Positions 10,211-29,994 of a DNA stretch of 64,000 nucleotides are shown one piece after another (within the stretch, counting starts at the first letter, position 1; each line of letters begins with the position of its first letter). The notes beneath the pieces are model-generated. The model did not search any database, had not been told where the DNA came from, and saw nothing but the letters and a program-made list of their open reading frames with translations. Made by a program: the position numbers and the translations under genes. This stretch comes from an uncultured delta proteobacterium (GTDB lineage: Bacteria > Desulfobacterota > Binatia > Binatales > Binataceae), in the NCBI GenBank assembly GCA_963794325.1, contig CAWCDG010000002.1:224001-288000 (forward strand), written 5' to 3'.

Positions 10211-10245
10211 GAGAATTATTTGCCTCAATTGATCGGATGACCGCC

Positions 10246-14873: not shown

Positions 14874-16088
14874 TCAAGCGTTCGAGCTGTTCGACGAACC
14901 GCGGAACAGGCGGGGACCGTATTGTGCCGCCATGCGAAACGGCCGAATCACCCAGTAGAGCGGGAAGAGGGCGGCCGGCAGCGGGATTAGTTCGTAGTCG
15001 CCCATCGTCGGCGCCAGCATCCGGCGGACAATATATCTCAATCGCGCGCGCCCACCCTCGATCGAGCGAAGAGGAACCTCCCACGGATCGAAGTCTGTCC
15101 GCCCCTGCGCGGCACCGCTGAACAGTCGGCTCGCGATGCGCGATGCCAATGCCTGGGCGGCGCGTTCGCGACGAGCTATCTCGACAACGTTCGCAGGAAT
15201 CGGCGCGTCAAGCAGGTCGTGCGCAAGGCAGATGCCAGTCAGGAACATCCTGCGGCTGCCGAGAGCGGTCGCCTCGTCGAGGGTGTCCATCAATGCGATG
15301 CCTGGCCGGGCGCGAATAGTCTCCGCAACATCGCAGATCACGCCAAGCGTGACCCATCCGTGCTTGGCGGCGTGAACGCATAGATACAGCAGCAGGTCCT
15401 CCGGCGCGATCGCGGTCACGGTGCCGAATTTCAGATCGACGGCACGCGCGCGCCGCCACAGCGCCTGCTCGTCGGGCGCGAAACGGAACGCGCGCGGCGT
15501 GATATTCCAATGAACGTCCACCGCACCCATCCCGCCCGCGGCAAAAAACGCGTCCTCGTATTCCTGGAAGTATCCGGTCGCGAGTCCCTCGCGCCTGGAA
15601 TGCGGCGACAGATACCCTTGCGCGCTGAGTATCTCTGCGATCCGGGGCAGATCCGTCTGACGCACCAGAAGATCCAGGTCGCTGAACTGGCGCAGCTCGA
15701 TCGATCCGTATGCCATCGCGGCCAGCACCGGACCTTTGAAGGTGACCGCGGGTATCCCGGCCGCTTCCAGCAATCCCATCAGCCGCACAAGTTCAGCCGT
15801 GAGATGACGGTTGTAGAGGATGATCAGCTGCCACTCCGTTCGGAGTCTCGCCATCGCTTCTTCCGGCACGGCGTCCGGACATTCGCCCTTCAGATATCGA
15901 TGGACCAGCGGGAGTACCGCATGGCGTTTTGCAATGTCGATGACGCGGTCCCAACTTTGGACGCGTGCCGCGGTTTCGGAGGCCAACGCCGTGCGTGCGG
16001 GCGTCGCCGCCGTCGTCGCGCAGTACAGCACAAGCGCCGCTTCAGTGGGCAAGTGGGAACGGTCGAGGAGAACGTCGTCGGATGCCAC
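14874..16088 (-). CDS. nucleotidyltransferase family protein (NTP_transf_5, lasso-cluster type)
   Basis: GIPAVTFKGPVLA..AYG...LRQFSDLDLLV, VDVHW, LLYLCVHAAKHGW..L..ICDV. Confidence 0.9.
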   Translation of the reverse strand: MASDDVLLDRSHLPTEAALVLYCATTAATPARTALASETAARVQSWDRVIDIAKRHAVLPLVHRYLKGECPDAVPEEAMARLRTEWQLIILYNRHLTAELVRLMGLLEAAGIPAVTFKGPVLAAMAYGSIELRQFSDLDLLVRQTDLPRIAEILSAQGYLSPHSRREGLATGYFQEYEDAFFAAGGMGAVDVHWNITPRAFRFAPDEQALWRRARAVDLKFGTVTAIAPEDLLLYLCVHAAKHGWVTLGVICDVAETIRARPGIALMDTLDEATALGSRRMFLTGICLAHDLLDAPIPANVVEIARRERAAQALASRIASRLFSGAAQGRTDFDPWEVPLRSIEGGRARLRYIVRRMLAPTMGDYELIPLPAALFPLYWVIRPFRMAAQYGPRLFRGSSNSSNA

Positions 16089-16191: not shown

Positions 16192-16635
16192 ATGACCCGG
16201 ATTGGAAAATTTTTCGCGCTGGCGTCGTCTGATCGGAGGCTGCTCTTGAGGACGATCGCGCCTCTGGTCGCGATGCGTGCCGCGGTCTTGGCGCTGAACT
16301 TCGCGCGAGTGCGGCGCATTGCCGAAGCGATGAGCCGGCCGTTGCGCATCGATGCGGACGCGGCCCGTCCTTCACCGGACAGGATTGCGTGGGCGGCGGC
16401 GACGGCGAGCCGGGTCGTCCCGGGCGGGAGCAACTGCCTGGTCCGCGCGCTCGCAACCGGCATCGTGCTCAAGCGCTACGGCTATCCGAGCGAGCTGAAG
16501 ATCGGCGTCACCAAGCCCGCGAGTGGCCGCTTCGAAGCGCACGCGTGGCTCGAGAGCGACGGCAGCGTCGTGATTGGCGATTTCCAGCTCGATCGATACA
16601 CGGCCATGGCAGCGCCGGATACCGTCGCGCGATAG
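16192..16635 (+). CDS. lasso peptide leader peptidase B2 (transglutaminase-like)
   Basis: NCLVRALA (catalytic Cys), LKIGV, FEAHAWLE (catalytic His). Confidence 0.93.
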   Translation: MTRIGKFFALASSDRRLLLRTIAPLVAMRAAVLALNFARVRRIAEAMSRPLRIDADAARPSPDRIAWAAATASRVVPGGSNCLVRALATGIVLKRYGYPSELKIGVTKPASGRFEAHAWLESDGSVVIGDFQLDRYTAMAAPDTVAR

Positions 16636-16945: not shown

Positions 16946-17080
16946 TCGCCTTCGCTCGCAAAACCATAGGTCAAATTTATCATGACGTGTCTAAACCCAA
17001 CGTCCAAGATCCAAGAGTCACGCAGACAATTGCTACTGATTCATCGCAATGGAAGACGAAATAAAAGCGAAGGAGAGCAT

Positions 17081-18022
17081 GTGAGTACAATCAAACGAGG
17101 CTTGCTTATGTTGGCCATTCTTGGCGGTCTGGGCTTGTCTGGACCGCAGGGTGCGTGGGCCAAGACGAAACTGCAGCAGGTCGATCCCATGACCATTGCT
17201 CCCTGCACGTCGAGTACCACGACGCTGAGTGGGAGCAACATTGTCTACACGCTGTCGACGAGTTTCTCGACGACCTTCACCGGCACTTGCATTAAAGTGA
17301 CGGGCAACAATGACCTCGTGATCATCGGTCCTTCGGTCACGATCTCCGGAGCCGGAGCCGGAATTGGCATCGACGTCGAGGGCAGCAACGATCTGATAAA
17401 CGGCCGTTCCAGCACAATAAGCGGGTTTGCGACGGGGCTCCTGGATCATGGGAGCAACAATTTGGGGGACAATCTGAATTTCTCCGGCAATGGAACCGGA
17501 CTGAAGCTGACGGGGACTACACTCAGATACATCAATTTGAATTCGAGTTCTAACACTGGGGTCGGCATTTGGCTCAGTGGATGCGGCGATGAGTGCGCCG
17601 TCTCGGATTTCTTCGTTGGGAGCAATGGCGGTGATGGACTGCTTATAAACGGCAGCAGCCCAGCCGCCGTTGCGAGCCTATTCATATCTCAAGACAACAC
17701 CGGTAACGGAGTCCACGTAGGCGGTCCCTCCGGCGATAACGTCGGTAACGTCTTTATAGATGATGCGGCCCTCGACTCGACACTAGCCGTCAACAACAAC
17801 GGCAAAGACGGAGTCTTTCTGGATGCGAGTGAAAACGGAGCAATAGACATGGTGACCGGGGTTATCTCTGACCTGAACGGGAGCGGCATCGATATGCACG
17901 ACGCAACCGCCAATTGCGGATCGAGCGGTCACTTCAATCTCTGGTCTTCACTCTCTTTCGGTACTTCGAAAGCGGGTGGTACGTCCAGTCCTGCCTGCAT
18001 TCCGAATCTGCCGGCCGAATAG
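17081..18022 (+). CDS. secreted right-handed parallel beta-helix protein, paralogue 1
   Basis: GTG start after AGGAG; signal peptide ..QGAWA-K; repeating N.G.G(I/V).L / GIDV motifs; conserved Cys pairs. Confidence 0.82.
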   Translation: MSTIKRGLLMLAILGGLGLSGPQGAWAKTKLQQVDPMTIAPCTSSTTTLSGSNIVYTLSTSFSTTFTGTCIKVTGNNDLVIIGPSVTISGAGAGIGIDVEGSNDLINGRSSTISGFATGLLDHGSNNLGDNLNFSGNGTGLKLTGTTLRYINLNSSSNTGVGIWLSGCGDECAVSDFFVGSNGGDGLLINGSSPAAVASLFISQDNTGNGVHVGGPSGDNVGNVFIDDAALDSTLAVNNNGKDGVFLDASENGAIDMVTGVISDLNGSGIDMHDATANCGSSGHFNLWSSLSFGTSKAGGTSSPACIPNLPAE

Positions 18023-18035
18023 GCTGGGGTTCATG

Positions 18036-18070
18036 ACTATGGCGGCGCCGGATAACCGTCCCGCCATAGT
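18036..18070 (+). terminator. hairpin terminator
   Basis: actatggcgg...ccgccatagt followed by tt. Confidence 0.55.
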
Positions 18071-18099
18071 TTCACCAACTGGTTGACTGCGTCCGATAC

Positions 18100-18340
18100 T
18101 CGTAACAAAGAGTAGGGATTTACGTCAATCAGCCTGACTGACGGCTTCTAACAGCTAAGGGCCGATGAAGAAGCCAAGTACGTCAGTCCTTCCTCGTCGC
18201 GCGGTGCCGACCTAACAAATTGTAGAAATTTACGTCAATCAGCCTAATTTACGACTTCTAACGGCTAGAGGCCAATACCGGAGTGGTCAATGAGGGCTAT
18301 AAATCCGCTTGACGTAAAGAGGGCAAAGTGAAATGATTCG
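18100..18340 (+). promoter_or_regulatory. repeat regulatory units and promoter upstream of beta-helix gene 2
   Basis: TTTACGTCAA at 18119 and 18229; its perfect inverse TTGACGTAAA at 18309; TTGACG-17-AATGAT. Confidence 0.7.
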
Positions 18341-18469
18341 CGCTGCTCGCAAAACCATAATCAAATCCGTCACTGCACGTCTTAAATCAACGTCCAAGAT
18401 CAAGAGTCACGAAGACAATTGTTACTGATGCACCGCAATTAATAACGAAATAAAAGCGAAGGAGAACAT

Positions 18470-19429
18470 ATGAGGACATTTAAACGAGGCTTGCTCATGT
18501 TGGCCATTCTTGCCGGGCTCGGCTTGACAGGATCGCAGGCGGCGTGGGCGAAGAAACACAACGACGGCGGCGGGCAGGTTGATCCCACAACCATTACCCC
18601 CTGTACATCGGCCACAACGACGCTCGCAACGAGCAATATTGTCTACACGCTGTCAACGGGTTTTTCGACGAGCTTCGTCGGCACGTGCATTAAAGTGACG
18701 GGCAACAATGATCTCATAATCATCGGTCCCCAAGCCACGATCACTGGCCCAGGTTCCGCGACCGCATCAATTGGCATCGACATTACGGGCACCAACGACA
18801 CGATCAACGGTCGTGCCAGCACAATAAGTTCGTTTGGAACCGCAGTGCTGGATGCCGGGACAGACACCTTGGGAGACAATCTCGACTTCACGGGTAATGG
18901 AGTCGGGCTCAAGATGACCGGGCACACAACCAAATGGGTCAACCTGAATTCGAGCAGTAACACCGGTAGTGGCGTTTGGTTCAATGGATGCCAAGATACC
19001 TGCGTCATCAACGATTTTTTCACTGGGAGCAATGGCGGTGATGGAATGCTCATAAACGGCCAAAGCCAGGGAACCGTTGCGAGCGTATTCATTTCTCAGG
19101 ATAACACCGGTTACGGAGTCCACGTAGGCCAAGCAACTGGCCAGGGCAATGGACCCACGATCATCGATGACGCGTCTCTCGACTCGACATTGGCGGTCAA
19201 CAATAACGGCAGCGACGGGGTTTTCCTGGACGTCAGTGAAGCCGGCGCTCTGGATGTGGTCACGGGCGTCGATGCAGAGAACAACAGCGGTATCGATATG
19301 CACGACGCGACAACCAATTGCGGATCGGGTGCCGGCCATTTTAATCTATGGTCGTCAAACTTTTTTGGTACTTCGAAAGCGGGTGCCACGACCAGTCCTG
19401 TTTGCATTCCGCTACTCCCGACCGAATAA
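18470..19429 (+). CDS. secreted beta-helix protein, paralogue 2
   Basis: Aligns along its full length with paralogues 1 and 3 (VDPTTITPCTS...GTCIKVTGNND...DMHDATTNCGS...FNLWSS..FGTSKAG..SPVCIP). Confidence 0.85.
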   Translation: MRTFKRGLLMLAILAGLGLTGSQAAWAKKHNDGGGQVDPTTITPCTSATTTLATSNIVYTLSTGFSTSFVGTCIKVTGNNDLIIIGPQATITGPGSATASIGIDITGTNDTINGRASTISSFGTAVLDAGTDTLGDNLDFTGNGVGLKMTGHTTKWVNLNSSSNTGSGVWFNGCQDTCVINDFFTGSNGGDGMLINGQSQGTVASVFISQDNTGYGVHVGQATGQGNGPTIIDDASLDSTLAVNNNGSDGVFLDVSEAGALDVVTGVDAENNSGIDMHDATTNCGSGAGHFNLWSSNFFGTSKAGATTSPVCIPLLPTE

Positions 19430-19451
19430 ACTCTTCATCGTTTGTCGGCGA

Positions 19452-19482
19452 CCTCCGTCGGATCCACCGGATCCGACGGAGG
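19452..19482 (+). terminator. GC-rich hairpin after paralogue 2
   Basis: cctccgtcggat-ccaccgg-atccgacggagg. Confidence 0.65.
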
Positions 19483-19539
19483 GCCGGCGAGAGTTCCCAC
19501 CCGCAAGATCCTTCGCTCCAGTCGATTTTGAGACACATA

Positions 19540-19665
19540 TAACAAATTGTATGAATTCTCGTCAATTTGCTTAAGGTACGACTTCTAATTACTAGAAGCC
19601 AACGCCAAAGCGGTCAAAGGGAGTCATAGCTCGCTTGACGCAAAGAAGACAATGTGAAATGATCG
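19540..19665 (+). promoter_or_regulatory. single degenerate regulatory unit and promoter upstream of beta-helix gene 3
   Basis: aacaaattgtatgaattctcgtcaa...cgacttctaa...TTGACG(19635)-17-AATGAT. Confidence 0.65.
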
Positions 19666-19729
19666 ATTTGGGTCTAAAACCGCACATAAATCTATCACAG
19701 CACGTCTTAAATCAGAGGAGAATAAGTAA

Positions 19730-20692
19730 GTGGCAGTAATCAAGCGCGGTTTGTTCATCCTGGCGATCCTGGTCGCCGTAGGCTTAACCGGCTCACAGGC
19801 TGCGTTAGCCAAGTCTCATGGGCCGGCCATGGTTGATCCGACGACCATTGCCCCCTGCACATCGGCTACCACAACACTCAGTGCAAGCAATACGGTCTAT
19901 ACGCTGACATCGAGTTTCTCGACGACCTTCACCGGCATCTGTATTAAAGTTACGGGCAGCAACGACCTCTTGATGCTCAGTTCCGACGTCACGATCACTG
20001 GTCCCGGAGCCGGGACTGGTATCGACATCGAGGGTAGCAATGACACGTTAAACGGCCGTGCCGGCACCGTGAGCGGGTTTGCGACGGGGATCCTGGATCA
20101 CGGCAAAGGCACTTTGGGAGAGGACGTCGATGTCACCGGGAATGTAACCGGTCTGGAGCTGACGGGGCGCACAGTCAGATGGGTGAATGTGGCTTCGTTT
20201 TCGAACACCGGCAACGGCATTTGGTTCAATGGATGTGCGGGCCAGGATTCGTCGCAAACTGCGGGATGCACCATTGCGGATTTTTTCACCGGCAGCAATG
20301 GCCTTGATGGACTGCTCATAAACAACGGCAGCGATGGCGCGAGTGCGGCCGTATTCATCTCCATGAATAACACCGGCAACGGAGTCCACCTGGGCGGTAC
20401 GGTTGGAGGTAGCGGTAATTCCGAGGTGGTGTTGGATGACGCGGCGGTCGAGTCGCCGACAATCGCTGACAACGGCCTGGACGGGATTTTTCTGGATACC
20501 AGTGAAAACGGCGCTGCAGACACGGTCACGGGGATTATTGCCGGCGGCAACACCGGTATCGATCTCCACGACGCGACCACCAACTGCGGCTCGAGCGGCA
20601 GCTTTAATCTTTGGTCCTCCCTCATATTTGGTACTTCGAAAGCTGGTGCAACGACCAGCCCCGTCTGCATTCCGCAAATCCCGAATTTGTAA
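19730..20692 (+). CDS. secreted beta-helix protein, paralogue 3
   Basis: GAGGAG RBS with GTG start; signal peptide; same architecture as paralogues 1 and 2. Confidence 0.85.
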   Translation: MAVIKRGLFILAILVAVGLTGSQAALAKSHGPAMVDPTTIAPCTSATTTLSASNTVYTLTSSFSTTFTGICIKVTGSNDLLMLSSDVTITGPGAGTGIDIEGSNDTLNGRAGTVSGFATGILDHGKGTLGEDVDVTGNVTGLELTGRTVRWVNVASFSNTGNGIWFNGCAGQDSSQTAGCTIADFFTGSNGLDGLLINNGSDGASAAVFISMNNTGNGVHLGGTVGGSGNSEVVLDDAAVESPTIADNGLDGIFLDTSENGAADTVTGIIAGGNTGIDLHDATTNCGSSGSFNLWSSLIFGTSKAGATTSPVCIPQIPNL

Positions 20693-20791: not shown

Positions 20792-21775
20792 TCAGCGGCC
20801 GCGGTCGCTCAAGTCGCGCAGGACGGCCTGCTTTACGTCGGCGAGTGCGGCGAAGTCGTTGGGCATCACCAGCTGTTTGATCGGCACCTGCTCGGCAACG
20901 CTCGCCAGGAAATGGAACTGACGTTTCAGCATCGCCGTGTCGGTAATATCGAACCGGTAGGCCGCCTTGACCAATCCCATAAGAGCTTCTGCGGGGGCGA
21001 GCACTCGAATTGTGACGCGGGTCGACGGTCTGCTCGAGTTCGAGCGCTTGAGCAAATAGACGCGTGCGAGCCGCCGTGGCTTCGTGTAGAACTCGGTGGG
21101 GCGGGAATACGTTGACCAGCGCGACTTTCCCGTATAGTGGGCGACCGGCTTCAAATTCCGCGAGGTCGCCCCGACACCCCGAATCGAATCATCCCAAAGC
21201 CGCAAGCCCGGGTACCCGGGAAGCCCCACAATAGTCTTGCGTTCGGTAACCGCCAGACAATCGTCGCAGACCAGCGGGTAGCCCGACAGGACGAAGCTTG
21301 CCGCGAGAGTCGATTTGCCCGATCCTGCCGGCCCGGTGAACGCACAAATTCCTTTCGGGGTCGCAACGGCAGTGGCATGCAGCGCTTCCCCGCCGCGCAG
21401 GTTTACGATGAGTGGAAGCACCTGGTCGATCAGGAGATGACGGATGGTGCGAATAGTCGCGTCGCCACTGGCGTTGCAACAGACTATCCGGCTTCCAACC
21501 CGGTCAACGACGAAGTCGGCAAGATTCGGGAAGGAAAGGACGTAACCATCCGGGATTTTGCCGTAACGAAGCCAGGGCTTGCCTCGTGGTTGCCGCGATT
21601 GCAGATACCATCGAGGAGTAAGGTGAGCGCGCTCGAAGCGCCGGGCAAGACTCACACGGACTGCGTTCCGGTGCGACGACGGCTTCAGCGTCGCGAGCTC
21701 GGGAATCGACATGTCCGCGACGATCTGTAGGCCGTAGGCCCGGTTATCGAAGGTTCGGATCCTCGTTTTGCTCAA
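20792..21775 (-). CDS. HPr kinase-like lasso peptide kinase
   Basis: LHATAV (His), Walker A GPAGSGKSTLAA, LVCDDCL (DD), PGYPGLRLW.D. Confidence 0.88.
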   Translation of the reverse strand: MSKTRIRTFDNRAYGLQIVADMSIPELATLKPSSHRNAVRVSLARRFERAHLTPRWYLQSRQPRGKPWLRYGKIPDGYVLSFPNLADFVVDRVGSRIVCCNASGDATIRTIRHLLIDQVLPLIVNLRGGEALHATAVATPKGICAFTGPAGSGKSTLAASFVLSGYPLVCDDCLAVTERKTIVGLPGYPGLRLWDDSIRGVGATSRNLKPVAHYTGKSRWSTYSRPTEFYTKPRRLARVYLLKRSNSSRPSTRVTIRVLAPAEALMGLVKAAYRFDITDTAMLKRQFHFLASVAEQVPIKQLVMPNDFAALADVKQAVLRDLSDRGR

Positions 21776-22019: not shown

Positions 22020-22190
22020 CTACAGGCAAATCGACGACATCATTGTATTGGTGCCGTCAGGCGAATTTACGGTTCCACCCGAGGCGGTGAGCTTCGCGAC
22101 GCTTCCGTATTCGACCAAGCGAGGACGAATATACTGTCGCTTTGCTCGCTCTTCCTTCTTTTTCGCCGGTTGTGGTGTGCTTTTGGTCAT
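22020..22190 (-). CDS. lasso peptide precursor (A), 56 aa
   Basis: Not in the ORF track. GGAGAGG RBS; MTKSTPQPAKKKEERAKRQYIRPRLVEYGSVAKLTA-SGGTVNSPDGTNTMMSSICL*. Leader motif YxxPxLxxxG, Thr at -2, Asp at core position 9. Confidence 0.93.
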   Translation of the reverse strand: MTKSTPQPAKKKEERAKRQYIRPRLVEYGSVAKLTASGGTVNSPDGTNTMMSSICL

Positions 22191-22267: not shown

Positions 22268-23470
22268 TTAACGTGTTTCTTTTTTGAAACGCGCCGGAAC
22301 CTCAAGCGAAGGTTTGGCGGTATGTGTCCCCTCGAGGCCGTAGGGAATCAGAACTTCGGTCGCATACTCGGAGGCCTTGGCCAGCGACGGAAAGAGGTCG
22401 CCATGAACCCGGAACAGTTCCTTTTCTATTTCTGCAACCGTGCGCTTTCCATCGATCAGGTTGACCGTTGTCCGCCTGGCCTCGCCCCAAACCGAAAGCT
22501 GCGGGACAAAATCGGGCCGCGTCTTCGCCAAATCCTCGGGCGCCAGCAACATCCCTTTGAGCGTCGAATGAATGAAGCGCGCCTTCTGTTCACCCCTGGA
22601 ATTGCGGATGGTCACCGTCCAGCTGAGCATCGTCTGCGCCGCGATGATGCCCATCTTGATCTTCACGCGGTCGCCCTTCCGCAGATCGACCGGCTTTTCA
22701 ATTGGCAGGAATGCAGCGCGCCGGGTGATCCGTCCTTTGCTGAAGGGCGAGTTGGTCATGTTGATGCCGGGCGCGAGCTCGGCAACGAACCATCCGCTGA
22801 GGCCGTGCATAACGCCAGCCGCGGAAACTTCGATCTCAGCTTCGGCATGAACGTGTTCCGGCGTCAGTTCGGTAAGATCGAAGGTGACCATCCGCGCCGG
22901 CTTGCCCAGCATTCGACGCGGGCTATTCTCGGCGGGGTATCCGGTGTTGAATGCGATGACGTGCGCGGGCGCCATATTCAGCCCGGCAGGCTTTTTGTCC
23001 CAGAAACTCACGGCGTCCCACATTTCGGGAAAATTCACCGGCGTAACGAACAGCTCGATGCGTCGAGGGATGGTCCGGCCGCCGGGCTTGAGGAAACGCT
23101 GGCGCGCGTCGTTGAAGATCTCGGGCATCCCTCCGCCAATTCCGAAATGGCTCAGCTGGTCTGCGATAACGACGTCGACCTTCTCGGGCAGCGTGGCGCG
23201 ACTGGAGACTTGGCGAATCCCTGTCGCGGTTTGCCCGCAACCATTGGCTCGGGCCACGTCGCGGGCTATTTGGATCATGCCGGTCAGGTCAACCTGGTAG
23301 AGTCGTGCGGCTCCCGCTTTCATCGCCAGCATGCCAAGCACGCCGGTCCCGCAGGCGAGGTCGAGAACGACGTCACCCGGCTTGACCACTGCGTTGATTG
23401 CCCGGCGAAACAATGAAGTCCTGGTCCGGTCGGTAAGGTACAGGCGGTGCTCATCTAGCATCAATGACAT
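22268..23470 (-). CDS. SAM-dependent methyltransferase, PRMT-like fold, with C-terminal PqqD/RRE-like segment
   Basis: H..YL.D..RT..F..AI, VVLDLACGTGVL.M.A..AGA, LPEKVDVVI, RQRFLKPGG..IP, HGLSGWF; C-terminal LIDGKRTVAEI. Confidence 0.85.
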   Translation of the reverse strand: MSLMLDEHRLYLTDRTRTSLFRRAINAVVKPGDVVLDLACGTGVLGMLAMKAGAARLYQVDLTGMIQIARDVARANGCGQTATGIRQVSSRATLPEKVDVVIADQLSHFGIGGGMPEIFNDARQRFLKPGGRTIPRRIELFVTPVNFPEMWDAVSFWDKKPAGLNMAPAHVIAFNTGYPAENSPRRMLGKPARMVTFDLTELTPEHVHAEAEIEVSAAGVMHGLSGWFVAELAPGINMTNSPFSKGRITRRAAFLPIEKPVDLRKGDRVKIKMGIIAAQTMLSWTVTIRNSRGEQKARFIHSTLKGMLLAPEDLAKTRPDFVPQLSVWGEARRTTVNLIDGKRTVAEIEKELFRVHGDLFPSLAKASEYATEVLIPYGLEGTHTAKPSLEVPARFKKETR

Positions 23471-23539: not shown

Positions 23540-25489
23540 TCACAGCGCCGCTCCGCTGGCCGCGGTCACTTGATCGAACGGCTCGCTGATACCCAGGAAC
23601 ACGACATTGAGCCACAGTTCAATCGCAAGGACCATCCATAGAAAGAATACATTCTCCGCGTAGGAGGGATCGCCGCGCGAATACGCGGCAGCCATCGAGT
23701 GGTATAGCTTCCGAACCGCTTCCCCGTCCACCCATCCGTTTTTGACACTGCTCAGGCGATCGAACAGCCGCTCTCCACCAAGCGCGATTAGCGCGTTGGC
23801 GTAAAGCTCGGTGGGGTCGGCCTTGTCAGGCCGCATCCGCAACCGTTCTGGCAGGATTCCGCGCATCGCTTCGCGCAGTACGATCTTGGTGAAGTTGCCC
23901 CGGCATCGTTGGCTGTAGGGGATCGCGAACGCAAACTCCATCACGCGGCGGTCCAGGAACGGATGGCGGCCCTCAACTCGGAAACCTGCTTCCCAGCGTC
24001 CGATCATCTCGAGAGCGTAAGCGAGAGATCCGGAAGAGTAAACGCCGTAGACATCTCGCTGTGCGAAACTGCGGCATCGCGGCAACGATGGCCGCGTGGA
24101 CAGCCGCTCCGACAGCCTCGTCCGGGCGGCAAACTCGCGCGAGACCACCGCGTTGGGCTCCGCGGGATTCCTCCACTGCCTGAGCACGGACTTCAGGCTG
24201 TCCGGAACCAACGGCAAGACTCCATACGGCAGCAGAGTTTTGACGTAGCCCGGAAAGGGCCCGAACCCAATTGGAGGATTCCGATGAATCCGCAACGTCT
24301 CCAACAGCGCCGGAATCCGCAACTGTTTGATCAGATCGGCATAGACGAAGTAGGTCCCCGACAGCCACTCGTCGCCACCCAGTCCGGTCATCCGAACTCT
24401 CAAGTCGTCGCGCTTGCCCAGCAGCGGCGTGTAGTCGGCGCACGCCGTGTTGGGATAGTCAGGCAGGTCCATGTAGTGCGCAACTTGCCGCATGAGTTCG
24501 GTGAGTGGAGCCATTCCGGGCGAGAGATAGGTATGGCGATGAGGGTACTTATGCAGGACCTCATCGACGTACTCATCTTCGGCGGCGGGTCCGGGCGCGA
24601 AGCGGACCGAGAAGCTTTCGAAGTTGTCGACTTGCACCTCTCGGTTGCGGCGCAAGGTCTCGGTCATACAGACAATTGATGAGGAATCAAGTCCGCCGCT
24701 AAGGTCCGACGCCACTCCTTTGACGCTCCGCAGCCGGCACCGCGTAGCTTCCTTGAAGAGCGAGAGAAAATGTTCGCCGTACTGCTCATCGGTGGAATAG
24801 GAAATTTCGCGCGAGGGATCGAGATCGTAGTAGCGCCGGCATTCCACGCCGCGCGCGCTGACGCGCAGGTAATGCGACGGCTCGAGGCGGCGAATGCCTT
24901 CAAAGAGGGTCTCAACCCGGGAGACGGGCGCTCTTACCAGGATGTCGGCGATCGCAGGCTCGTTCGGCCTTCGCGGTACTCGCGGGTCCTGAAATAGTTG
25001 ATGAACCTCCGATGCGCAAAGAAAAAAACCCGAACCTTGGTAGTAATAGAGACTCTTTACTCCCAGTGGGTCGCGGGCACAGTACAGTGTTCGCGTCGTC
25101 TCGTCCCACAAAGCGAACGCGAAATCGCCGATCACTTTCGCCGGCGCATCCGTGCCCCAACACTGCCAACTGCGAAGCATGATCTCCGCATCGGTCCCGG
25201 TATGCACGCGATGACCATGCGCCGTCAGCTCCTTGATGAGGTCGTCGCGGTTGTCCAACCGCCCGTCCATCGAGAGCACCAGCCCCGCGTTGTCGTCCAC
25301 GAAAGGGCTGGTTTCCGCTGAAGCTTCAACTGTCGTGCAGAGTCTTGCGTGGCCCATCGCGACGGGACCACGATGCCAGACGCCAAGGCCGTCAATCCCT
25401 CGATAAGGGACGACCGCGAGCATCCGTTCTACCGTCGATCGTTCAGCCGGGGAGCCCTCGGTATGAAAGAGCGCCGCGATGCCGCTCAC
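23540..25489 (-). CDS. lasso cyclase C (asparagine synthetase-like)
   Basis: Likely start MSGIAA (lacks the glutaminase Cys of AsnB); DGRLDNR, GDFAFALWD, ARDPLG, LSGGLDSSSI, TGLGGDE, RHPFLDRR, K.VLREAM.GILPE..R.DK. Confidence 0.93.
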   Translation of the reverse strand: MSGIAALFHTEGSPAERSTVERMLAVVPYRGIDGLGVWHRGPVAMGHARLCTTVEASAETSPFVDDNAGLVLSMDGRLDNRDDLIKELTAHGHRVHTGTDAEIMLRSWQCWGTDAPAKVIGDFAFALWDETTRTLYCARDPLGVKSLYYYQGSGFFLCASEVHQLFQDPRVPRRPNEPAIADILVRAPVSRVETLFEGIRRLEPSHYLRVSARGVECRRYYDLDPSREISYSTDEQYGEHFLSLFKEATRCRLRSVKGVASDLSGGLDSSSIVCMTETLRRNREVQVDNFESFSVRFAPGPAAEDEYVDEVLHKYPHRHTYLSPGMAPLTELMRQVAHYMDLPDYPNTACADYTPLLGKRDDLRVRMTGLGGDEWLSGTYFVYADLIKQLRIPALLETLRIHRNPPIGFGPFPGYVKTLLPYGVLPLVPDSLKSVLRQWRNPAEPNAVVSREFAARTRLSERLSTRPSLPRCRSFAQRDVYGVYSSGSLAYALEMIGRWEAGFRVEGRHPFLDRRVMEFAFAIPYSQRCRGNFTKIVLREAMRGILPERLRMRPDKADPTELYANALIALGGERLFDRLSSVKNGWVDGEAVRKLYHSMAAAYSRGDPSYAENVFFLWMVLAIELWLNVVFLGISEPFDQVTAASGAAL

Positions 25490-25517
25490 CAGCCGGCGCG
25501 CTCCTTGGCGCAAAGCA

Positions 25518-25805
25518 TCATCGCGAGCGAGGCTTGGATTCCCGGTTCAGTCGCACGAGTCCTTTGTCGGCCAGTTGCTGCAGAAGATCCTCGAGGTCGC
25601 GTCGGAGTTGATCCGGCTCAACGTCGAACTGCTTCTTGAGGGACTCGAGAGCCTTTTCGAGCGAGGGCTGTTCGACGAGTTGATGCCACATCTGCTCACC
25701 GGCCCCGTCCAATCCAAAATATACACCGGTGGCGAGGTTCAGGATGACGACCTCGTCGCTGAGGTCGCGCCAAATTACGTCGTCACAGATTTCAACCCGC
25801 GTCAC
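25518..25805 (-). CDS. PqqD family RiPP recognition element (lasso B1)
   Basis: DEVVILNLATGVYFGLDGAG..MW..L...L...FDVE...L..DL..LL..L...GLV. Confidence 0.93.
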   Translation of the reverse strand: MTRVEICDDVIWRDLSDEVVILNLATGVYFGLDGAGEQMWHQLVEQPSLEKALESLKKQFDVEPDQLRRDLEDLLQQLADKGLVRLNRESKPRSR

Positions 25806-25926: not shown

Positions 25927-26418
25927 TTATTCCGTCATCGCCGATTCAGTAAACGACAGGTTGGTCGGAAAGGTTATTCCCAGCAAAGTGTTAGAAGGTA
26001 GAAAGATCCTGCTGGATGCATCGTAGGTGATCGCGACACTGAACTGGCAACCGAATGTGCGTGGCGGGCCGCAGTTCGCGGTGTTTGCGGCAGTCAGGGT
26101 GACGGTGGCGCCGCTGATCGTTGGCGACATCTGGTTCGAGATCGCAGTCTTGAGCGTTGCGCTGGTAAGGGCAGCATTGATTTGAGCGGTGCGCGCCCCG
26201 AGATAAGACGCCTGACTGACGGCGAGCGCTGCCTGGCCGATTAGGGCGAACTGGACTCCGACCAACATTATAACCAGGACCAGAGGTACGATCAGCGCGA
26301 GTTCCACCGCCGACTGACCACGTTTGAAACGGCGTCTCCGTCCGCCGCTGCCATCATCACGTGCCCAGGCTCTCGCGCCTGACAGAGACGCTCTGATGCT
26401 AGCGTATGACACCATCAT
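25927..26418 (-). CDS. TadE-like pseudopilin
   Basis: RGQSAVELALIVP prepilin motif (G|QxxxE) followed by a TM helix; start uncertain. Confidence 0.88.
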   Translation of the reverse strand: MMVSYASIRASLSGARAWARDDGSGGRRRRFKRGQSAVELALIVPLVLVIMLVGVQFALIGQAALAVSQASYLGARTAQINAALTSATLKTAISNQMSPTISGATVTLTAANTANCGPPRTFGCQFSVAITYDASSRIFLPSNTLLGITFPTNLSFTESAMTE

Positions 26419-26484
26419 ATCCCTCGGATTAATGAATAGCCGATTCATCTGCTCCGCCGAACCAAGAGCCACTGCTTGAATTCA

Positions 26485-27462
26485 CTACTGGATTAAAACC
26501 GGTTTCGTGGTACCAGTTACCGGCCCATTCGCATCTGCGATGTCGGCGGAAATGTTGGTCGAGACCACTTCGGCGTAAAATTGGCCCGGTGCGCCGGGCT
26601 CAGGGACGATCAGCGCCGTGATAAATCCAGTGATATCGACGGTCTTCTTGCCATTCGGAAGCGAAGCAACCATCGGGATAACGATCACTCGAGGATCGTT
26701 GGGATCGGTTAGAACGCTGGGATCGCTTGCATTCGGCACTTCAGTCCCGAGGTTGTAACGATCTTGTACACCTGGCCCGCCGTGAACGTTCACGTCATTG
26801 CCAGTGACTGTATCGACATCGGTAGTGCCAACCAAAATTGGCGTAGTTCCGCCGTAGCCATTTTCAATTGCCGCCTCATAGTGACTGCCTGTATATCCCT
26901 GGGTGGGATCTTGGGCACTGAAATCCAAGCCTCCCCAATTGCCCGGTGTTTGCTTAATGGCGTCCCCAGGAAGACCGAAAGTCTGGCCGGGCGCTGCGTT
27001 CGCACACGGCGGGGCTGCGCACACAAAGCCGAACGGGACTAGATGAGTCCCACCTGCGCCGACAATCGGTTGTATCTGCGCCTTGGCGGTTACTTGAACT
27101 GGAGCACTGCCTAGTCCTAATGCCTGTCCGAAAAGATACGGCACCGTCCGTTGAACCGTAAGCGAGATAGTCTGGTGGCCGACGACCGTTGGTCCACTAA
27201 TAATCTCGCCCGCCTGAATTCCGTTCGAGGTCGCGTAGGTGGTCGCCGTCGCGATGGCATTGTTGTCGCCGGTCGAGTCCGTGCCATTGAGCATGCCGGC
27301 TCCAGACAGCACCGCCTGATCAGCGGCCTTCTGGATTCCCTGCCAGTTCATGTACATTACGGCGACGTCGCTCCCGAGCGCTACCGCGCCCAGAAGCACC
27401 GCAAGGATCCCAGCGTACAGAACGATTACCTGCCCGCGTGGCTTACCAAGTATCTTCATCAT
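26485..27462 (-). CDS. TadG-like pilus assembly protein
   Basis: RGQVIVLYAG..., D......IQKAADQAVLSGA Tad motif; PGNWGGLD. Confidence 0.88.
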   Translation of the reverse strand: MMKILGKPRGQVIVLYAGILAVLLGAVALGSDVAVMYMNWQGIQKAADQAVLSGAGMLNGTDSTGDNNAIATATTYATSNGIQAGEIISGPTVVGHQTISLTVQRTVPYLFGQALGLGSAPVQVTAKAQIQPIVGAGGTHLVPFGFVCAAPPCANAAPGQTFGLPGDAIKQTPGNWGGLDFSAQDPTQGYTGSHYEAAIENGYGGTTPILVGTTDVDTVTGNDVNVHGGPGVQDRYNLGTEVPNASDPSVLTDPNDPRVIVIPMVASLPNGKKTVDITGFITALIVPEPGAPGQFYAEVVSTNISADIADANGPVTGTTKPVLIQ

Positions 27463-27639
27463 TTGTATCGACCTCTCGGATCCGGTCATCGAACCCACGA
27501 CGAGCGGATTCTGCTAAAAACCCCTTTGTTCCTCCTTTTCGTATCACCTGTCCTACTTTATGGCAAGTATGCAACAGGTGGTCGGTTGAAGGAGAGCGCG
27601 TGATGCGAAAACACGCTTAAATCCATCGTGTCGACCGTT

Positions 27640-27668
27640 AATCTAACAAGACTCAAGATTTACGTCAA
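27640..27668 (-). promoter_or_regulatory. sigma70-like promoter for tadG-tadE(-lasso) unit
   Basis: TTGACG-17 nt-TAGATT; contains the TTGACGTAAA motif also found upstream of the beta-helix genes. Confidence 0.6.
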
Positions 27669-27842
27669 GAATCAATCGTAGCAGGTATGCTACTTTGAGT
27701 AGTAGAAGATGCCAAGCTTGTAGGATACCGGGAGGCTGGTCGAAGTAGTCAGTCTAATACTGAAGTCCGAATGCCCGCAAAGGGGCGGACCCAGGCCCGC
27801 CCCTCGCGCGCTTCTGCTTCTGAACCCGCTCGCGGCCGGCTG

Positions 27843-28801
27843 CTAGCTCCGGCAGAACGCTTTGATGGCATCCTGCAGGTCGTCCACGCTTGGATACCCC
27901 AAGTCATGGGATGCCTTCTTGATGCCTCCGTCCGTGGTGGCCAGGTAGGACACACACTTGCCGTGACAGTTCGGTTTTCCGGGGATCGCATCGGTAGCAC
28001 CGAAACAGCCGGGCAGGGGGAGTGAGATATCTTCACACTGGTCAGGTGCTACACCCTGATTCGCGATCAGAGTCCCGGCGAAGGTCGTTTGGGTGAAGCT
28101 GTCAAAGTCGGTTTGAAAGAACAGCGAGATTCCATCGGTCTCAACGCCGGTGGATGACATGGCACCCGGGACAACAATCGTCGTGGCGGGAATCACGGCA
28201 CCCGTCGAGGGATTGTATTGGTCGTAAACGGGGATACCGTCGCCTTCGTTGATCAGGAAGTTGCCGTTCGGCAGGATGTTGAAGCCATCAGAATCTGTCG
28301 CGGCCGGCGCGGAAATACTGATGGGGCCGCTCACGATCGCCCCGGTAGACGGATTGAGTCCAAAGACTTCCGGTGTATCGTAGGGATAGCCCGTCAATAC
28401 GTAGAGCACACCACTTCGGAAAGCGATATCCTGAATCCCGAAGCCCGGCCGAGGGTTGGGTAGGGTCCCGATGTCTGCGCCTCCAGCCCCGCCGTTAAAC
28501 GGCGCGATTCGGATAAAATCCGTCGCTCCAAACTGATCGGTTAGCTCCGTGTAGTAAACTCTGTTGCCGATGATCTCGATGCCGCGGCCATTTTGTTCGT
28601 CGAAGGCGCCGGTCGGAACGAAGGAGCCTACGACTGCGCCGCCGTTGAAGTCGTAGGTGGTAATCGGTCCGCCGCCGTTCAGCGCTGCATTGTTGCACGT
28701 GATTAGGGGTTGCGCCTGTGCCGTGGCGGCCCAGAGTGCCACGATGAGGGTGAACGCCATCGCGAGCAGACCACTCGCTTTCAATGCGAATTCCGTTTCA
28801 T
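27843..28801 (-). CDS. secreted repeat protein (propeller-like) with Cys-containing C-terminal domain; start appears frameshifted
   Basis: ORF 27843-28784 has a signal peptide. The GGAGGAG-ATG at 28801 is one base out of frame; adding one A gives MKRKFALKASGLL. C-terminus PGKPNCHGKCVSYLA...LQDAIKAFC. Confidence 0.75.
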
Positions 28802-29103
28802 AACTCCTCCGACGTCTTTGAATTTCAAATTTGTAACTCGTATCACGCCCGTTGCTTGCCGGTATCAGTGGAGGTACCCGACATTGAAACGCCCCGGGGC
28901 AGATACTGACTGAATGAAAGCCTGCGACCAGTCAGTTCTACGAAGCGCTTTATCTCATCGGTCCGTCTGATAAGTCAAATCAAGCGGTGGTCTAGTTGGT
29001 TAACCTTTGATGATCCGAAGCAGAGTGCCTCGGCAATCGGGCCGGTCATAGCCACCAATGAATTCGTGCGGATCAGGTTTTGAGAAGGGACAGCGTACCG
29101 AAT

Positions 29104-29518
29104 CTACTGCGAGACGAGCATCTGCGAGCTGCTGGTCAAGGTCAGCGGGACGGCAGACATTAACGGAATCGTCTGAGTGTAGTTGTGGGTGATCGTCACC
29201 AGCGCATCCCGCTGCGTTGGAAGGGTCGCATCGGCTGGAAAAGAAACGCTGACTTCGGCCGTGCTCAGGAACGGCGCGTAGCTTACGGCTACGGCCTGAA
29301 TCTGCGCGGTGGTGGCCGGGTTCTGACTGGTAGAACTATGAACGATCGCGTAGCGGGCGGCTTCTCGCGCTGCATCGCTCACGGTGTTGTATCGATAGAC
29401 CACGATGCCCATTCCCATAATTGCGAAGAGCAACAACAAGAAGGTTGCAGCCACCACCGCAAACTCAGCCATCGCCTGTCCGGAAGACTTCCATCAGCAA
29501 GGAAAATCGCTCGTTCAT
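29104..29518 (-). CDS. TadE-like pseudopilin (5' frameshift)
   Basis: SGQAMAEFAVV..., AAREAARYAIVH. The natural ATG at 29518 (TAATG overlap) is out of frame with the body. Confidence 0.8.
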
Positions 29519-29971: not shown

Positions 29972-29994
29972 CTTTTCTGTCTGGAACCGCACCT

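What the first reader, a model, noticed from the sequence alone, without database searches (positions are those of the whole stretch)
22268..23470. Eukaryote-like PRMT-fold methyltransferase with altered active site and RRE-like C-terminus
Seen: PRMT-type N-terminal helix, motif I, post-II and beta-barrel HG..GWF motifs. The Arg-binding double-E loop (SExxG.....E) reads ADQLSHFGIGGGM and the THW loop is absent. The core peptide has no Arg or Lys. The tail (..NLIDGKRTVAEIEKEL..) resembles the PqqD/RRE winged helix. Inference: a leader-guided RiPP methyltransferase with a non-Arg target (Cys19 thiol, Met sulfur, C-terminal carboxyl, Asn amide or phosphate), i.e. possibly new chemistry.
Basis: partly seen in the sequence, partly recalled or inferred. 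Interest (0 to 1): 0.82.

Follow-up and report, generated by a model that had tools for sequence, protein, structure and literature searches.

The report
Remodelled PRMT-like lasso peptide methyltransferase
An enzyme built like the arginine methyltransferases of eukaryotes has lost its arginine-gripping residues and become a fixed part of a widespread bacterial lasso-peptide gene cluster, so it probably methylates something other than arginine.

Summary
The ORF at 22268-23470 (-) is real. It encodes a 400-aa SAM methyltransferase with a PRMT fold (PDB PRMT2 E 3e-26; Pfam PRMT_C above cut-off; AF2 pLDDT 89; Foldseek PRMT6/2/1 E ~1e-26). It sits inside a lasso cluster: B1, cyclase, MT, precursor, HPrK-like kinase, then B2 and NTP_transf_5.

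Of 80 genomic homologue loci, 63 are lasso-linked. All of these but one carry the same remodelled pocket: first Glu of the double-E loop becomes Asp, the second becomes Ala/Gly, and THW becomes I-x-R-R with a one-residue insertion. These enzymes form one clade (SH-aLRT 100). The 17 non-lasso relatives keep canonical double-E and HW motifs, and one lies beside a DDAH-like gene.

Precursors of this clade have Met-rich tails that mostly end in Cys-Leu (35 of 49). None of 22 candidate precursors from kinase-type lasso clusters without the MT ends that way.

The C-terminal three-helix domain gives PqqD as top or near-top hit in three searches, but none is significant. The domain also occurs in non-RiPP relatives, so "RRE-like" remains unproven.

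My best reading is a dedicated non-arginine lasso tailoring methyltransferase. The acceptor is open: tail sulfur (Met/Cys) about 0.4, C-terminal carboxylate about 0.2, kinase-installed phosphate about 0.12. I found no published description.

The parts
22556..23470 (-). Methyltransferase, residues 1-305. PRMT-fold catalytic module made of a Rossmann SAM domain and a beta-barrel, with a remodelled substrate pocket (R9, Y11, D104-Q105, G113, R250-R251).
   Evidence: Pfam PrmA and PRMT_C; PDB PRMT2 E 3.4e-26; AF2 pLDDT 89.4; Foldseek PRMT6/2/1; family invariants; motif table.
22328..22555 (-). Methyltransferase, residues 306-381. Conserved C-terminal helical domain (helices 311-315, 327-338, 345-355, 363-381). 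It is winged-helix/PqqD-like at best.
   Evidence: Models (pLDDT 90.8). PqqD is top or near top but not significant. No Pfam hit. Conserved W328, G329, A331, R332, L338, G341, E349, H356, L359, F360.
22268..22327 (-). Methyltransferase residues 382-400 plus the stop codon. Low-confidence tail that most homologues lack.
   Evidence: pLDDT below 50 for residues 380-400; most homologues end near residue 378-380.
22020..22190 (-). Lasso precursor of 56 aa. The leader carries the Y..P.L.EYG...KLT motif. The 20-residue core has a predicted Ser1-Asp9 ring and a Met14-Met15 ... Cys19-Leu20 tail.
   Evidence: ORF; NCBIfam lasso_leader_L3 at 22.3 bits against a cut-off of 19; alignment of 45 homologous precursors.
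20792..21775 (-). HPrK-related peptide kinase with a P-loop GxxGxGKS and a DD motif.
   Evidence: NCBIfam HprK_rel_A at 6.2e-9, below its cut-off. Found in 61 of 66 loci of the MT clade; the other five contigs end nearby.
23540..25513 (-). Lasso cyclase (C), asparagine-synthetase-like.
   Evidence: Pfam Asn_synthase 1.9e-40; NCBIfam lasso isopeptide cyclase 1.1e-130, below its cut-off.
25518..25805 (-). B1, a discrete PqqD-family RRE.
   Evidence: Pfam PqqD 7.6e-16.
16192..16635 (+). B2 leader peptidase, transglutaminase-like.
   Evidence: NCBIfam lasso_biosyn_B2 at 98.1 bits against a cut-off of 33.
14874..16088 (-). NTP_transf_5 nucleotidyltransferase, a frequent partner of the kinase in lasso clusters.
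   Evidence: Pfam PF14907 at 1.6e-58; present in many homologous loci.
16982..20692 (+). Three tandem paralogous secreted proteins lying between the kinase and B2. Whether they belong to the cluster is uncertain.
   Evidence: 61-69% identical to one another; one homologue lies beside the kinase in L001; weak NosD hit below cut-off.

Best explanation
The gene encodes an active SAM-dependent peptide methyltransferase. It descends from bacterial PRMT-like arginine methyltransferases and has become a dedicated tailoring enzyme of a widespread family of kinase-type lasso-peptide clusters.

Shown:
- PRMT fold with SAM-binding residues kept (D14, R17, motif I).
- Obligatory co-location with lasso genes.
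- The arginine pocket is replaced by a new conserved set (R9, Y11, D104-Q105, A/G113, I-x-R250-R251).
- A single origin of this remodelled clade.
- Co-occurrence with precursors whose tails are Met-rich and mostly end in Cys-Leu.

Inferred:
- It methylates the precursor or the lasso peptide on a non-arginine atom of the C-terminal tail.
- My preferred acceptor is sulfur, giving either a Met14/Met15 sulfonium or S-methyl-Cys19. The retained acidic D104 and the new Tyr11 would stabilise the cationic transition state. R250/R251 would hold the nearby C-terminal carboxylate.
- The C-terminal helical domain may help to hold the peptide, but this is not shown.

I put about 0.9 on the general claim (a non-Arg lasso tailoring MT). 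The confidence given here, 0.4, is for the sulfur acceptor.
For: Fold and activity. Invariant D14, R17, G41, G46 and D104 are listed.

Context:
- 63 of 80 homologue loci hold a cyclase, B1 or kinase.
- The kinase is present in 61 of 66 loci whose MT is at least 38% identical. It is adjacent on the same strand in 48 of them.

Remodelled pocket:
- It is shared by all lasso-linked MTs except L058.
- All 17 non-lasso relatives have canonical T-E-T...E-E-G and S-H-W motifs.
- The 58 remodelled MTs form one clade with SH-aLRT 100.
- The canonical relative L056 lies beside a DDAH/ADI-family gene. This fits the idea that the ancestral job was arginine methylation.

Tail link:
- 35 of 49 precursors end in CL.
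- By regex, 41 of 65 candidates end in CL, against 0 of 22 in MT-less kinase-type lasso clusters. Two or more Met occur in 36 of 65 against 1 of 22.
- Per locus, Met or Cys is in the tail in 59 of 64 MT+ loci and 5 of 21 MT- loci.
- A second, separate PRMT-like clade in Acidobacteriota lasso clusters also goes with Met-bearing cores, 10 of 11.

Precedent: Met S-methyl sulfonium was found in the lasso peptide longipeptin A (PMC10664482, passages read).
Against: No tool result shows the acceptor atom.

The tail association rests on few independent events. On the kinase tree there are only 4 supported independent contrasts. The tail trait goes the same way in about 3.1 of them, with a median sign-test p of 0.25.

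Some MT+ clusters have cores without Cys, and L041 has neither Met nor Cys in its tail. L084 and L086 have a single Met and no CL.

The newly conserved arginines (R9, R250, R251) would suit an anionic acceptor such as a carboxylate or phosphate at least as well.

The C-terminal domain is ancestral and also sits in non-RiPP relatives. Leader guidance through it is therefore unproven.
Confidence: 0.4

Rival explanations
1. C-terminal alpha-carboxyl O-methyltransferase. R250/R251 bind the free carboxylate of the last residue (Leu20 here) and the enzyme makes a methyl ester. This would parallel lassomycin-type lasso peptides, but with an unrelated fold.
For: The C-terminal carboxylate is the one feature present in every substrate, including MT+ clusters whose cores lack Cys or Met. 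Acidic pocket residues are lost and new invariant arginines are gained. The last residue is mostly hydrophobic in this clade. C-terminal methylation of lasso precursors is established chemistry (PMC8498205, passages read; PMC13352647).
Against: An acidic residue (D104, Glu in a few members) stays invariant next to the presumed acceptor site. That is awkward for an anionic substrate. This reading also does not explain why Met-rich tails track the presence of the MT.
Confidence: 0.2
2. Phosphate O-methyltransferase. The neighbouring HPrK-like kinase phosphorylates a Ser or Thr of the core. The MT then methylates that phosphate and gives a methyl phosphodiester.
For: The kinase accompanies the MT in every locus with enough flank and is usually the next gene: 61 of 66 present, 48 adjacent. 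A kinase, MT and NTP_transf_5 trio recurs even in a non-lasso radical-SAM cluster, L057. The arginine gains suit a phosphate. Related lasso kinases do phosphorylate cores, for example BsfK on Ser3 (PMC10368454, passages read). Ser/Thr at core positions 4-5 is enriched in this clade: 30 and 32 of 65 against 2 and 6 of 22.
Against: Kinase-type lasso clusters without any MT are common, so the linkage may be inherited rather than functional. The L057 MT beside a kinase has a canonical arginine pocket. D104 is retained. I know of no precedent for methyl phosphate on a RiPP, and none appeared in the reviews read.
Confidence: 0.12
3. N-methyltransferase of the classical kind, acting on Arg or Lys. 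It would act on the Arg/Lys-rich leader or on another protein, and its place in the cluster would be incidental or regulatory.
For: The fold is that of PRMTs. One lasso cluster (L058) holds a canonical double-E enzyme together with an Arg-bearing core. Some cores of the clade do contain Arg or Lys.
Against: Both arginine-clamping glutamates and the HW pair are replaced throughout the clade. The window's core has no Arg or Lys. 35 of 65 candidate cores lack Arg. A modification on the leader would be discarded on maturation.
Confidence: 0.05
4. Catalytically silent scaffold. The protein has lost transferase activity and serves only to bind the precursor or to assemble the kinase and cyclase.
For: The pocket is heavily altered, and there is an extra peptide-binding-like domain.
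Against: The SAM-binding residues and motif I are invariant across 44 aligned members. The new pocket residues are themselves conserved, which points to selection on a working active site.
Confidence: 0.05

Closest known systems
Type I protein arginine methyltransferases (PRMT1, PRMT2, PRMT6, CARM1)
   Same: Same two-domain fold of Rossmann SAM domain plus beta-barrel. Shared N-terminal helix with the Asp/Arg pair that holds SAM, and shared motif I. Supported by E 3e-26 by sequence and TM 0.73-0.80 normalised to target.
   Different: Both glutamates of the double-E loop and the THW residues are replaced. It has an extra C-terminal helical domain. It is bacterial and embedded in a lasso cluster, and the core peptide has no Arg.
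Bacterial PRMT-like proteins with canonical motifs (loci L056, L061-L063, L065-L070, L072, L074, L075, L078-L080)
   Same: These are the nearest relatives on the tree, at 29-37% identity. Some have the same C-terminal domain.
   Different: They keep double-E and HW motifs and have no lasso genes nearby. L056 lies next to a DDAH/ADI-family gene.
Lasso C-terminal carboxyl methyltransferases (LasF of lassomycin, StspM) and aspartyl O-methyltransferases (LihM and other PAMTs)
   Same: They are SAM-dependent tailoring enzymes of lasso peptides. StspM acts on the linear precursor (PMC8498205; PMC13352647; PMC11285071).
   Different: They belong to a different enzyme family. I recall them as isoaspartyl-methyltransferase-like, which is recall and not a tool result. 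No such Pfam family appears among this protein's 10 hits. Their clusters have no kinase and no Met-rich Cys-Leu tail.
LopH, candidate Met S-methyltransferase of the lasso peptide longipeptin A
   Same: It is the precedent for a Met sulfonium in a lasso peptide tail (PMC10664482, passages read).
   Different: That paper describes LopH as resembling the SAM-binding regulatory domain of human MTHFR, not a PRMT. The assignment was not tested experimentally there, and I did not compare the sequences.
PqqD-family RiPP recognition elements (lasso B1, PqqD)
   Same: Three helices superpose on PqqD 3g2b with Z 5.7, rmsd 2.5 A and 46 residues aligned. This is the top of 48,161 chains. A similar ..L.DG.RT..EI.. 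stretch is present.
   Different: There is no three-stranded sheet in the model, no Pfam PqqD match, and no profile match to the clusters' own B1 proteins. All scores lie within noise.
Kinase-type lasso clusters (paeninodin, pseudomycoidin, Bsf of Bradymonas)
   Same: Same cluster type: HPrK-like kinase plus NTP_transf_5 with split B1/B2 (PMC8498205; PMC10368454).
   Different: Those clusters have no PRMT-like enzyme. Their cores end in Ser or have other ends, not a Met-rich Cys-Leu tail.

Membership tests
Protein arginine N-methyltransferase (type I PRMT) | Rossmann SAM-binding domain with motif I, and the N-terminal helix Asp/Arg that hold SAM | tested here: met
   D14, R17, D37, G41 and G46 are invariant in 44 sequences. 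They align to PRMT2.
Protein arginine N-methyltransferase (type I PRMT) | PRMT beta-barrel domain | tested here: met
   Pfam PRMT_C at 31.6 bits against a cut-off of 27. Foldseek aligns about 320 columns to PRMT6/2/1.
Protein arginine N-methyltransferase (type I PRMT) | Double-E loop with two glutamates that clamp the guanidinium | tested here: not met
   D104 and G113 stand opposite the two Glu of PRMT2. The clade consensus is D ... A/G.
Protein arginine N-methyltransferase (type I PRMT) | THW loop | tested here: not met
   The loop reads R-I-T-R-R with a one-residue insertion. Non-lasso relatives keep S-H-W.
Protein arginine N-methyltransferase (type I PRMT) | Methylates peptidyl arginine | not testable with these tools
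   The window's core has no Arg. This needs an enzyme assay.
RiPP recognition element (PqqD-like RRE) | Match to the PqqD family profile | tested here: not met
   No Pfam family at E<=10 for residues 291-385. hhalign against 41 lasso B1 proteins gives probability 0.2. PDB PqqD is the best hit but only at E 0.086.
RiPP recognition element (PqqD-like RRE) | Winged helix-turn-helix made of a three-stranded sheet plus three helices | tested here: inconclusive
   The models show three helices and only a short hairpin. VIA puts PqqD top at Z 5.7 and lasso B1 6jx3 at Z 4.2, both in the noise range. Foldseek gives PqqD E 0.75.
RiPP recognition element (PqqD-like RRE) | Binds the leader peptide | not testable with these tools
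   This needs a binding assay.
Lasso peptide biosynthetic gene cluster (tailoring enzyme of) | Co-located with precursor, B1/B2 and cyclase, with the co-location conserved among homologues | tested here: met
   Window genes. 63 of 80 homologue loci are lasso-linked. Three further Acidobacteriota loci were found.
Lasso C-terminal carboxyl / aspartyl O-methyltransferases (LasF, StspM, LihM) | Membership of the isoaspartyl (PCMT-like) O-methyltransferase family (family assignment recalled, not from a call) | tested here: not met
   The 10 Pfam families hit at E<=0.01 are PrmA, PRMT_C, PRMT5_C and generic class I methyltransferase domains. None is PCMT.
LopH-type Met S-methyltransferase | Sequence or fold similarity to LopH | not tested
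   No LopH sequence was at hand. The paper describes an MTHFR-regulatory-domain-like fold.

The most novel reading that the evidence does not exclude
The PRMT-derived pocket, now lined with arginines, methylates a phosphoryl group that the neighbouring HPrK-like kinase places on the core peptide. The target could be a Ser or Thr, or even the conserved penultimate Cys. The product would be a methyl-phosphate-bearing lasso peptide. That modification is not known for any RiPP, and it would be a new reaction type for the PRMT fold.
Probability: 0.12. Interest if true: 0.9.

Novelty: new variant of a known kind. Interest (0 to 1): 0.68.

Why it matters
Three things make this worth testing.

1. It would be the first PRMT-fold enzyme assigned to RiPP tailoring, and a clear natural case of an arginine methyltransferase pocket rebuilt for another acceptor. 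Canonical and remodelled relatives are both available for comparison.

2. It defines a large, uncharacterised lasso family. Members occur in Acidobacteriota, Nitrospirota, Rokubacteria/Methylomirabilota, Binatota, Proteobacteria, Actinomycetota and Planctomycetota. The family has a distinctive Met-rich Cys-Leu tail and three tailoring enzymes (kinase, nucleotidyltransferase, methyltransferase), and its product is unknown.

3. Each candidate chemistry (Met sulfonium, S-methyl-Cys, Leu methyl ester, methyl phosphate) leaves a distinct mass-spectrometric signature. One co-expression experiment can therefore decide among them.

A thioether- and thiol-rich tail also raises the untested possibility of soft-metal binding, for example Cu(I).

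Tried and rejected
- Complex prediction. I submitted MT (alignment A1), SAM and precursor (alignment A4). The verdict was 'no answer', with ipSAE 0.02 in both runs, and the controls were not folded. I take it as no evidence either way.
- Pfam on the isolated C-terminal region: no family at E<=10.
- hhalign of the C-terminal domain against the clusters' own B1 proteins: nothing, probability 0.2.
- phmmer of residues 271-385 against PDB: only chance-level rows.
- Foldseek of the isolated domain: no match at E<=0.001.
- ESM Atlas on residues 296-385: best named leads were a PRMT_C-bearing cluster (0.82) and a 'PKMT C-terminal winged helix' cluster (0.78). Both are under the tool's 0.9 lead threshold. 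I kept them only as leads.
- Cys19 as the sole universal target: rejected, because several MT+ clusters have cores without Cys.
- Phylogenetically corrected test of MT presence against sulfur in the tail: only 4 supported contrasts, so it cannot reach significance.
- Literature. No PRMT-like lasso or RiPP methyltransferase turned up in search listings for 'lasso peptide' with 'arginine methyltransferase' (1 unrelated paper), with kinase/nucleotidyltransferase/methyltransferase, with Nitrospira/Acidobacteria, with methionine-rich/copper/S-methylation, for 'ribosomally synthesized' + PRMT (2 unrelated papers), or. None turned up either in passages of the 2024 RiPP methyltransferase review (0 occurrences of 'PRMT') or the 2026 interlocked-peptide review.
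- Not seen: the paeninodin paper (PMC4919450) is not held. Supplementary tables of RODEO-type surveys were closed and could list this co-occurrence.
I recomputed the same counts from the stored loci.
Full report
THE OBJECT

The ORF at 22268-23470 on the minus strand encodes 400 residues. It lies in a lasso-peptide cluster. On the same strand, in order, are:
- a PqqD-family B1 (25518-25805; Pfam PqqD 7.6e-16);
- an asparagine-synthetase-like cyclase (23540-25513);
- the methyltransferase;
- a 56-residue precursor (22020-22190; NCBIfam lasso leader model above cut-off);
- an HPrK-related kinase (20792-21775).

After three tandem paralogous secreted proteins on the plus strand come a B2 peptidase (16192-16635, +) and an NTP_transf_5 nucleotidyltransferase (14874-16088, -). 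The window belongs to a 4.45-Mb genome in 10 contigs, 85% complete, with one copy of the gene.

The PRMT likeness is real.
- Pfam finds PrmA (3.2e-9) and the PRMT beta-barrel domain PRMT_C (31.6 bits, cut-off 27).
- phmmer against PDB sequences returns only PRMTs at the top. The best is zebrafish PRMT2 at E 3.4e-26 over residues 8-269.
- An AlphaFold2 model built on 44 homologues has mean pLDDT 89.4. Foldseek matches it to PRMT6, PRMT2, PRMT1 and CARM1 at E about 1e-26, with TM 0.73-0.80 normalised to the target.

The THW loop is not absent. The loop is there with one extra residue and reads R-I-T-R-R.

The 20-residue core has a predicted Ser1-Asp9 ring, no Arg or Lys, and ends Cys19-Leu20.

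THE FAMILY AND ITS CONTEXT

The protein has more than 1000 relatives in the large protein collection (1017 at E<=0.001 among the 8000 candidates scored). Most are 371-410 aa and cover 91-100% of the query, so the C-terminal region is part of the family. In 44 aligned members the SAM-holding residues (D14, R17, motif I glycines) are invariant. So are D104, F109, G110, G114, R250, H222/G223/F228, H301-S302-T303 and a set of C-terminal positions.

A scan of one genome per species gave 338 confirmed relatives, and the best 80 loci were kept. In 63 of these 80, tblastn with the window's own proteins finds a lasso cyclase, B1, B2 or the kinase beside the methyltransferase. The usual order is B1-B2-C-precursor-MT-kinase-NTP_transf_5. 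The other 17 loci have none of these, except an NTP_transf_5 in L057.

Among 66 loci whose MT is at least 38% identical (window included), 61 have the kinase. It is adjacent on the same strand in 48. In the five without a kinase, the contig ends close by.

The hosts named in the record titles span Acidobacteriota, Nitrospirota, Rokubacteria/Methylomirabilota, Binatota, several proteobacterial classes, Actinomycetota and Planctomycetota.

A REMODELLED POCKET WITH A SINGLE ORIGIN

Reading the pocket columns in all 80 homologues gives a clean split.

The 17 non-lasso relatives keep canonical PRMT motifs:
- ..Y-H-x-S-M-L-x-D-x-x-R-T.. in the N-terminal helix;
- T-E-T-x-G-x-F-G-F-E-E-G in the double-E loop;
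- S-H-W (or S-W/N-W) in the THW loop.

The lasso-linked enzymes instead have:
- E-H-R-x-Y-L-x-D-x-x-R in the helix;
- A-D-Q-I-G-x-F-G-F-E-A-G in the loop, with Asp for the first Glu (a retained Glu in three members) and Ala/Gly/Ser/Tyr for the second;
- I-x-R-R with an inserted residue in place of THW.

The one exception is L058. It is a lasso-linked enzyme with fully canonical motifs and no C-terminal domain, and its cluster's core does contain an Arg.

On a maximum-likelihood tree of 76 of the 81 sequences, the 58 remodelled enzymes form one clade with SH-aLRT 100. Five partial sequences (L051, L060, L064, L071, L077) were left out. The sister group is the canonical pair L057+L063. The root on L079/L080 is my choice, but the clade is one side of a well-supported branch whatever the root.

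The canonical relative L056 lies next to a DDAH/arginine-deiminase-family gene. That fits the idea that canonical members really handle arginine.

In sum, four or five residues that line the arginine channel in PRMTs were exchanged once and then conserved. I read that as a change of acceptor, not decay.

WHAT TRAVELS WITH THE ENZYME: THE PRECURSOR TAIL

The precursors next to these enzymes share a leader of the form K-K-P-Y-x-x-P-x-L-V-E-Y-G-x-V-A-K-L-T-x. Their cores have an 8-9-residue ring closed on Asp or Glu, followed by a tail rich in Met. 35 of 49 precursors found by similarity plus motif end in Cys-Leu.

To see whether this goes with the enzyme, I collected kinase-type lasso clusters from 300 genomes of the window's phylum (kinase in 14 of 301, G000 included). 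I also sampled 350 genomes of the phylum of locus L006 (kinase in 50 of 351). I then fetched 58 regions. Candidate precursors were picked by one regular expression; a few loci gave more than one, and some of those may be spurious.

| Class | Candidates | End in CL | Two or more Met | Mean Met per core |
|---|---|---|---|---|
| MT clade of the window | 65 | 41 | 36 | 2.18 |
| No MT | 22 | 0 | 1 | 0.18 |

Per locus, Met or Cys occurs in the tail in 59 of 64 MT+ loci and in 5 of 21 MT- loci. One of those five, L116, in fact has a partial MT at its contig end.

A second, separate PRMT-like clade turned up in Acidobacteriota kinase-type lasso clusters. It has about 30% identity and pocket motifs S-D-L-R-G and I/V-Y-G. 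Its cores do not end in CL, but 10 of 11 contain Met.

These counts are not independent events. On a kinase tree only 4 supported contrasts exist. The tail trait goes the same way in about 3.1 of them and the other way in 0.1. Four contrasts cannot reach significance.

There are counter-examples. L041 has neither Met nor Cys in its tail. L084 and L086 have one Met and no CL. Several cores lack Cys.

THE C-TERMINAL DOMAIN

In the full model, residues 306-381 form helices 311-315, 327-338, 345-355 and 363-381. Residues 380-400 are disordered. Modelled alone, residues 296-375 give pLDDT 90.8, with a short hairpin and three helices.

Evidence for PqqD/RRE likeness:
- A profile of the domain finds PqqD of M. 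extorquens as the best PDB sequence, at E 0.086.
- Foldseek ranks X. campestris PqqD second, at E 0.75.
- VIA-align ranks it first of 48,161 chains (Z 5.7, rmsd 2.5 A, 46 residues). A lasso B1 (6jx3) scores Z 4.2.

Evidence against:
- None of these scores is significant by the tools' own notes.
- Pfam finds nothing.
- The profile does not match the clusters' own B1 proteins.
- The model lacks the three-stranded sheet that holds the leader in RREs.
- The same domain is present in canonical relatives in non-RiPP surroundings. L056 lies beside a DDAH-like gene. L061 lies beside an rRNA-methyltransferase-like gene and a YkuD gene. L066 lies beside MFS and dehydrogenase genes. L079/L080 lie beside CtaA.

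The domain is thus ancestral to the bacterial family. It may have been co-opted for peptide binding, but 'RRE' is a hypothesis. I put it at about one in three.

MECHANISM

Shown: a PRMT fold with an intact SAM site, a rebuilt acceptor channel, fixed membership of a kinase-type lasso cluster, and co-occurrence with Met/Cys-rich tails.

Inferred: the enzyme methylates the precursor or the lasso peptide on a non-arginine atom.

I rank the acceptors as follows.

(a) Tail sulfur, about 0.4. This means either a Met sulfonium or S-methyl-Cys. Sulfur-bearing tails are the substrate feature that tracks the enzyme in two separate MT clades. The channel keeps one acidic residue and gains a Tyr, which suits a cationic transition state. 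Met S-methylation is already documented in a lasso peptide tail, there attributed to an unrelated enzyme (PMC10664482).

(b) The C-terminal carboxylate, about 0.2. It is the only feature common to all substrates, and the new arginines would bind it.

(c) A phosphate placed by the neighbouring kinase, about 0.12. The linkage to the kinase is very tight. A kinase, MT and NTP_transf_5 trio recurs in the non-lasso radical-SAM locus L057.

(d) Classical Arg/Lys methylation, or a silent scaffold, about 0.05 each. The remainder is unknown.

COMPARISON WITH WHAT IS KNOWN, AND NOVELTY

The protein works like, and folds like, a type I PRMT, but it fails two defining features (double-E and THW). I therefore do not file it as an arginine methyltransferase.

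Known lasso methylations are the C-terminal ester of lassomycin-type peptides and Asp methylation leading to aspartimide. These are covered in the reviews PMC8498205, PMC11285071 and PMC13352647, of which I read passages only. Those enzymes belong to another family. That family assignment is recalled, not from a call. No such Pfam hit appears.

Six full-text searches and the passages read gave no PRMT-like enzyme in a lasso or other RiPP pathway. The library lacks most subscription papers, and supplements were closed. A mention in a genome-mining table therefore cannot be excluded.

I rate it a new variant of a known kind, with interest 0.68.

Noticed in passing
window 16982-18022, 18470-19429, 19730-20692 (+): Three tandem paralogous secreted proteins lie between the kinase and B2. 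They are 61-69% identical to one another, have signal-peptide-like N-termini, and are Gly/Asn/Thr-rich and probably beta-helical. Each is preceded by a similar upstream stretch. One homologue (36-38% identity) lies right beside the kinase in the closest related locus, L001. One paralogue gives a weak NosD (periplasmic copper-binding) hit below cut-off.
   Followed up: partly
L048:4033-4491 (+), L050:1475-1843 (+): In a proteobacterial subclade of the same cluster family, the lasso precursor is fused at its C-terminus to a Peptidase_S74 (endosialidase intramolecular chaperone) self-cleaving domain, scoring 28-31 bits against a cut-off of 22. The core's Met-rich end would be released by autoproteolysis.
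   Followed up: partly
L086, L101, L102, L113, L115, L124 (coordinates): A second, distinct PRMT-like clade of about 30% identity occurs in kinase-type lasso clusters. It has PRMT_C above cut-off in L102 and mostly the same C-terminal domain. Five of the six loci (not L101) share a different remodelled pocket, S-D-L-R-G with I/V-Y-G in place of THW; L101 has another variant. Their cores often end K-T-x and contain Met but no Cys-Leu.
   Followed up: partly
L058:2108-2995 (+): A Planctomycetia lasso cluster holds a PRMT-like enzyme with fully canonical double-E and S-W motifs and no C-terminal domain. The adjacent core contains an Arg and ends in Cys. It is a candidate true arginine-methylated lasso peptide.
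   Followed up: partly
L057:6690-12739 (+): A canonical-motif PRMT-like enzyme with the C-terminal domain sits in a non-lasso cluster. The order is two radical-SAM enzymes, an HPrK-like kinase, the MT, an S24-like peptidase and NTP_transf_5. This looks like another RiPP-type pathway sharing the kinase, MT and nucleotidyltransferase trio.
   Followed up: partly
L056:281-1072 (-): A DDAH/arginine-deiminase-family gene lies next to a canonical bacterial PRMT-like gene. This hints at a methylarginine-handling pair in a Nitrospirae genome.
   Followed up: no
window 25927-31312 (-): Directly upstream of the lasso B1 gene lie TadE/TadG-like Flp-pilus assembly genes: TadE at 3.7e-8, and Tad/Tad_C just below cut-off. 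They are probably unrelated to the cluster.
   Followed up: no
precursor cores of loci L001-L112: Ser/Thr at core positions 4 and 5, inside the ring, is enriched in the MT clade: 30 and 32 of 65 against 2 and 6 of 22 in MT-less clusters. Ser/Thr in the last six residues is rarer: 31 of 65 against 17 of 22. The kinase's target may therefore lie in the ring here, unlike the C-terminal Ser of paeninodin.
   Followed up: no
L030 (MT 10001-11140): This Nitrospira locus has MT, kinase, NTP_transf_5 and a CL-ending precursor. No cyclase, B1 or B2 was found in the 10 kb upstream. It may be a split or partly lost cluster.
   Followed up: no
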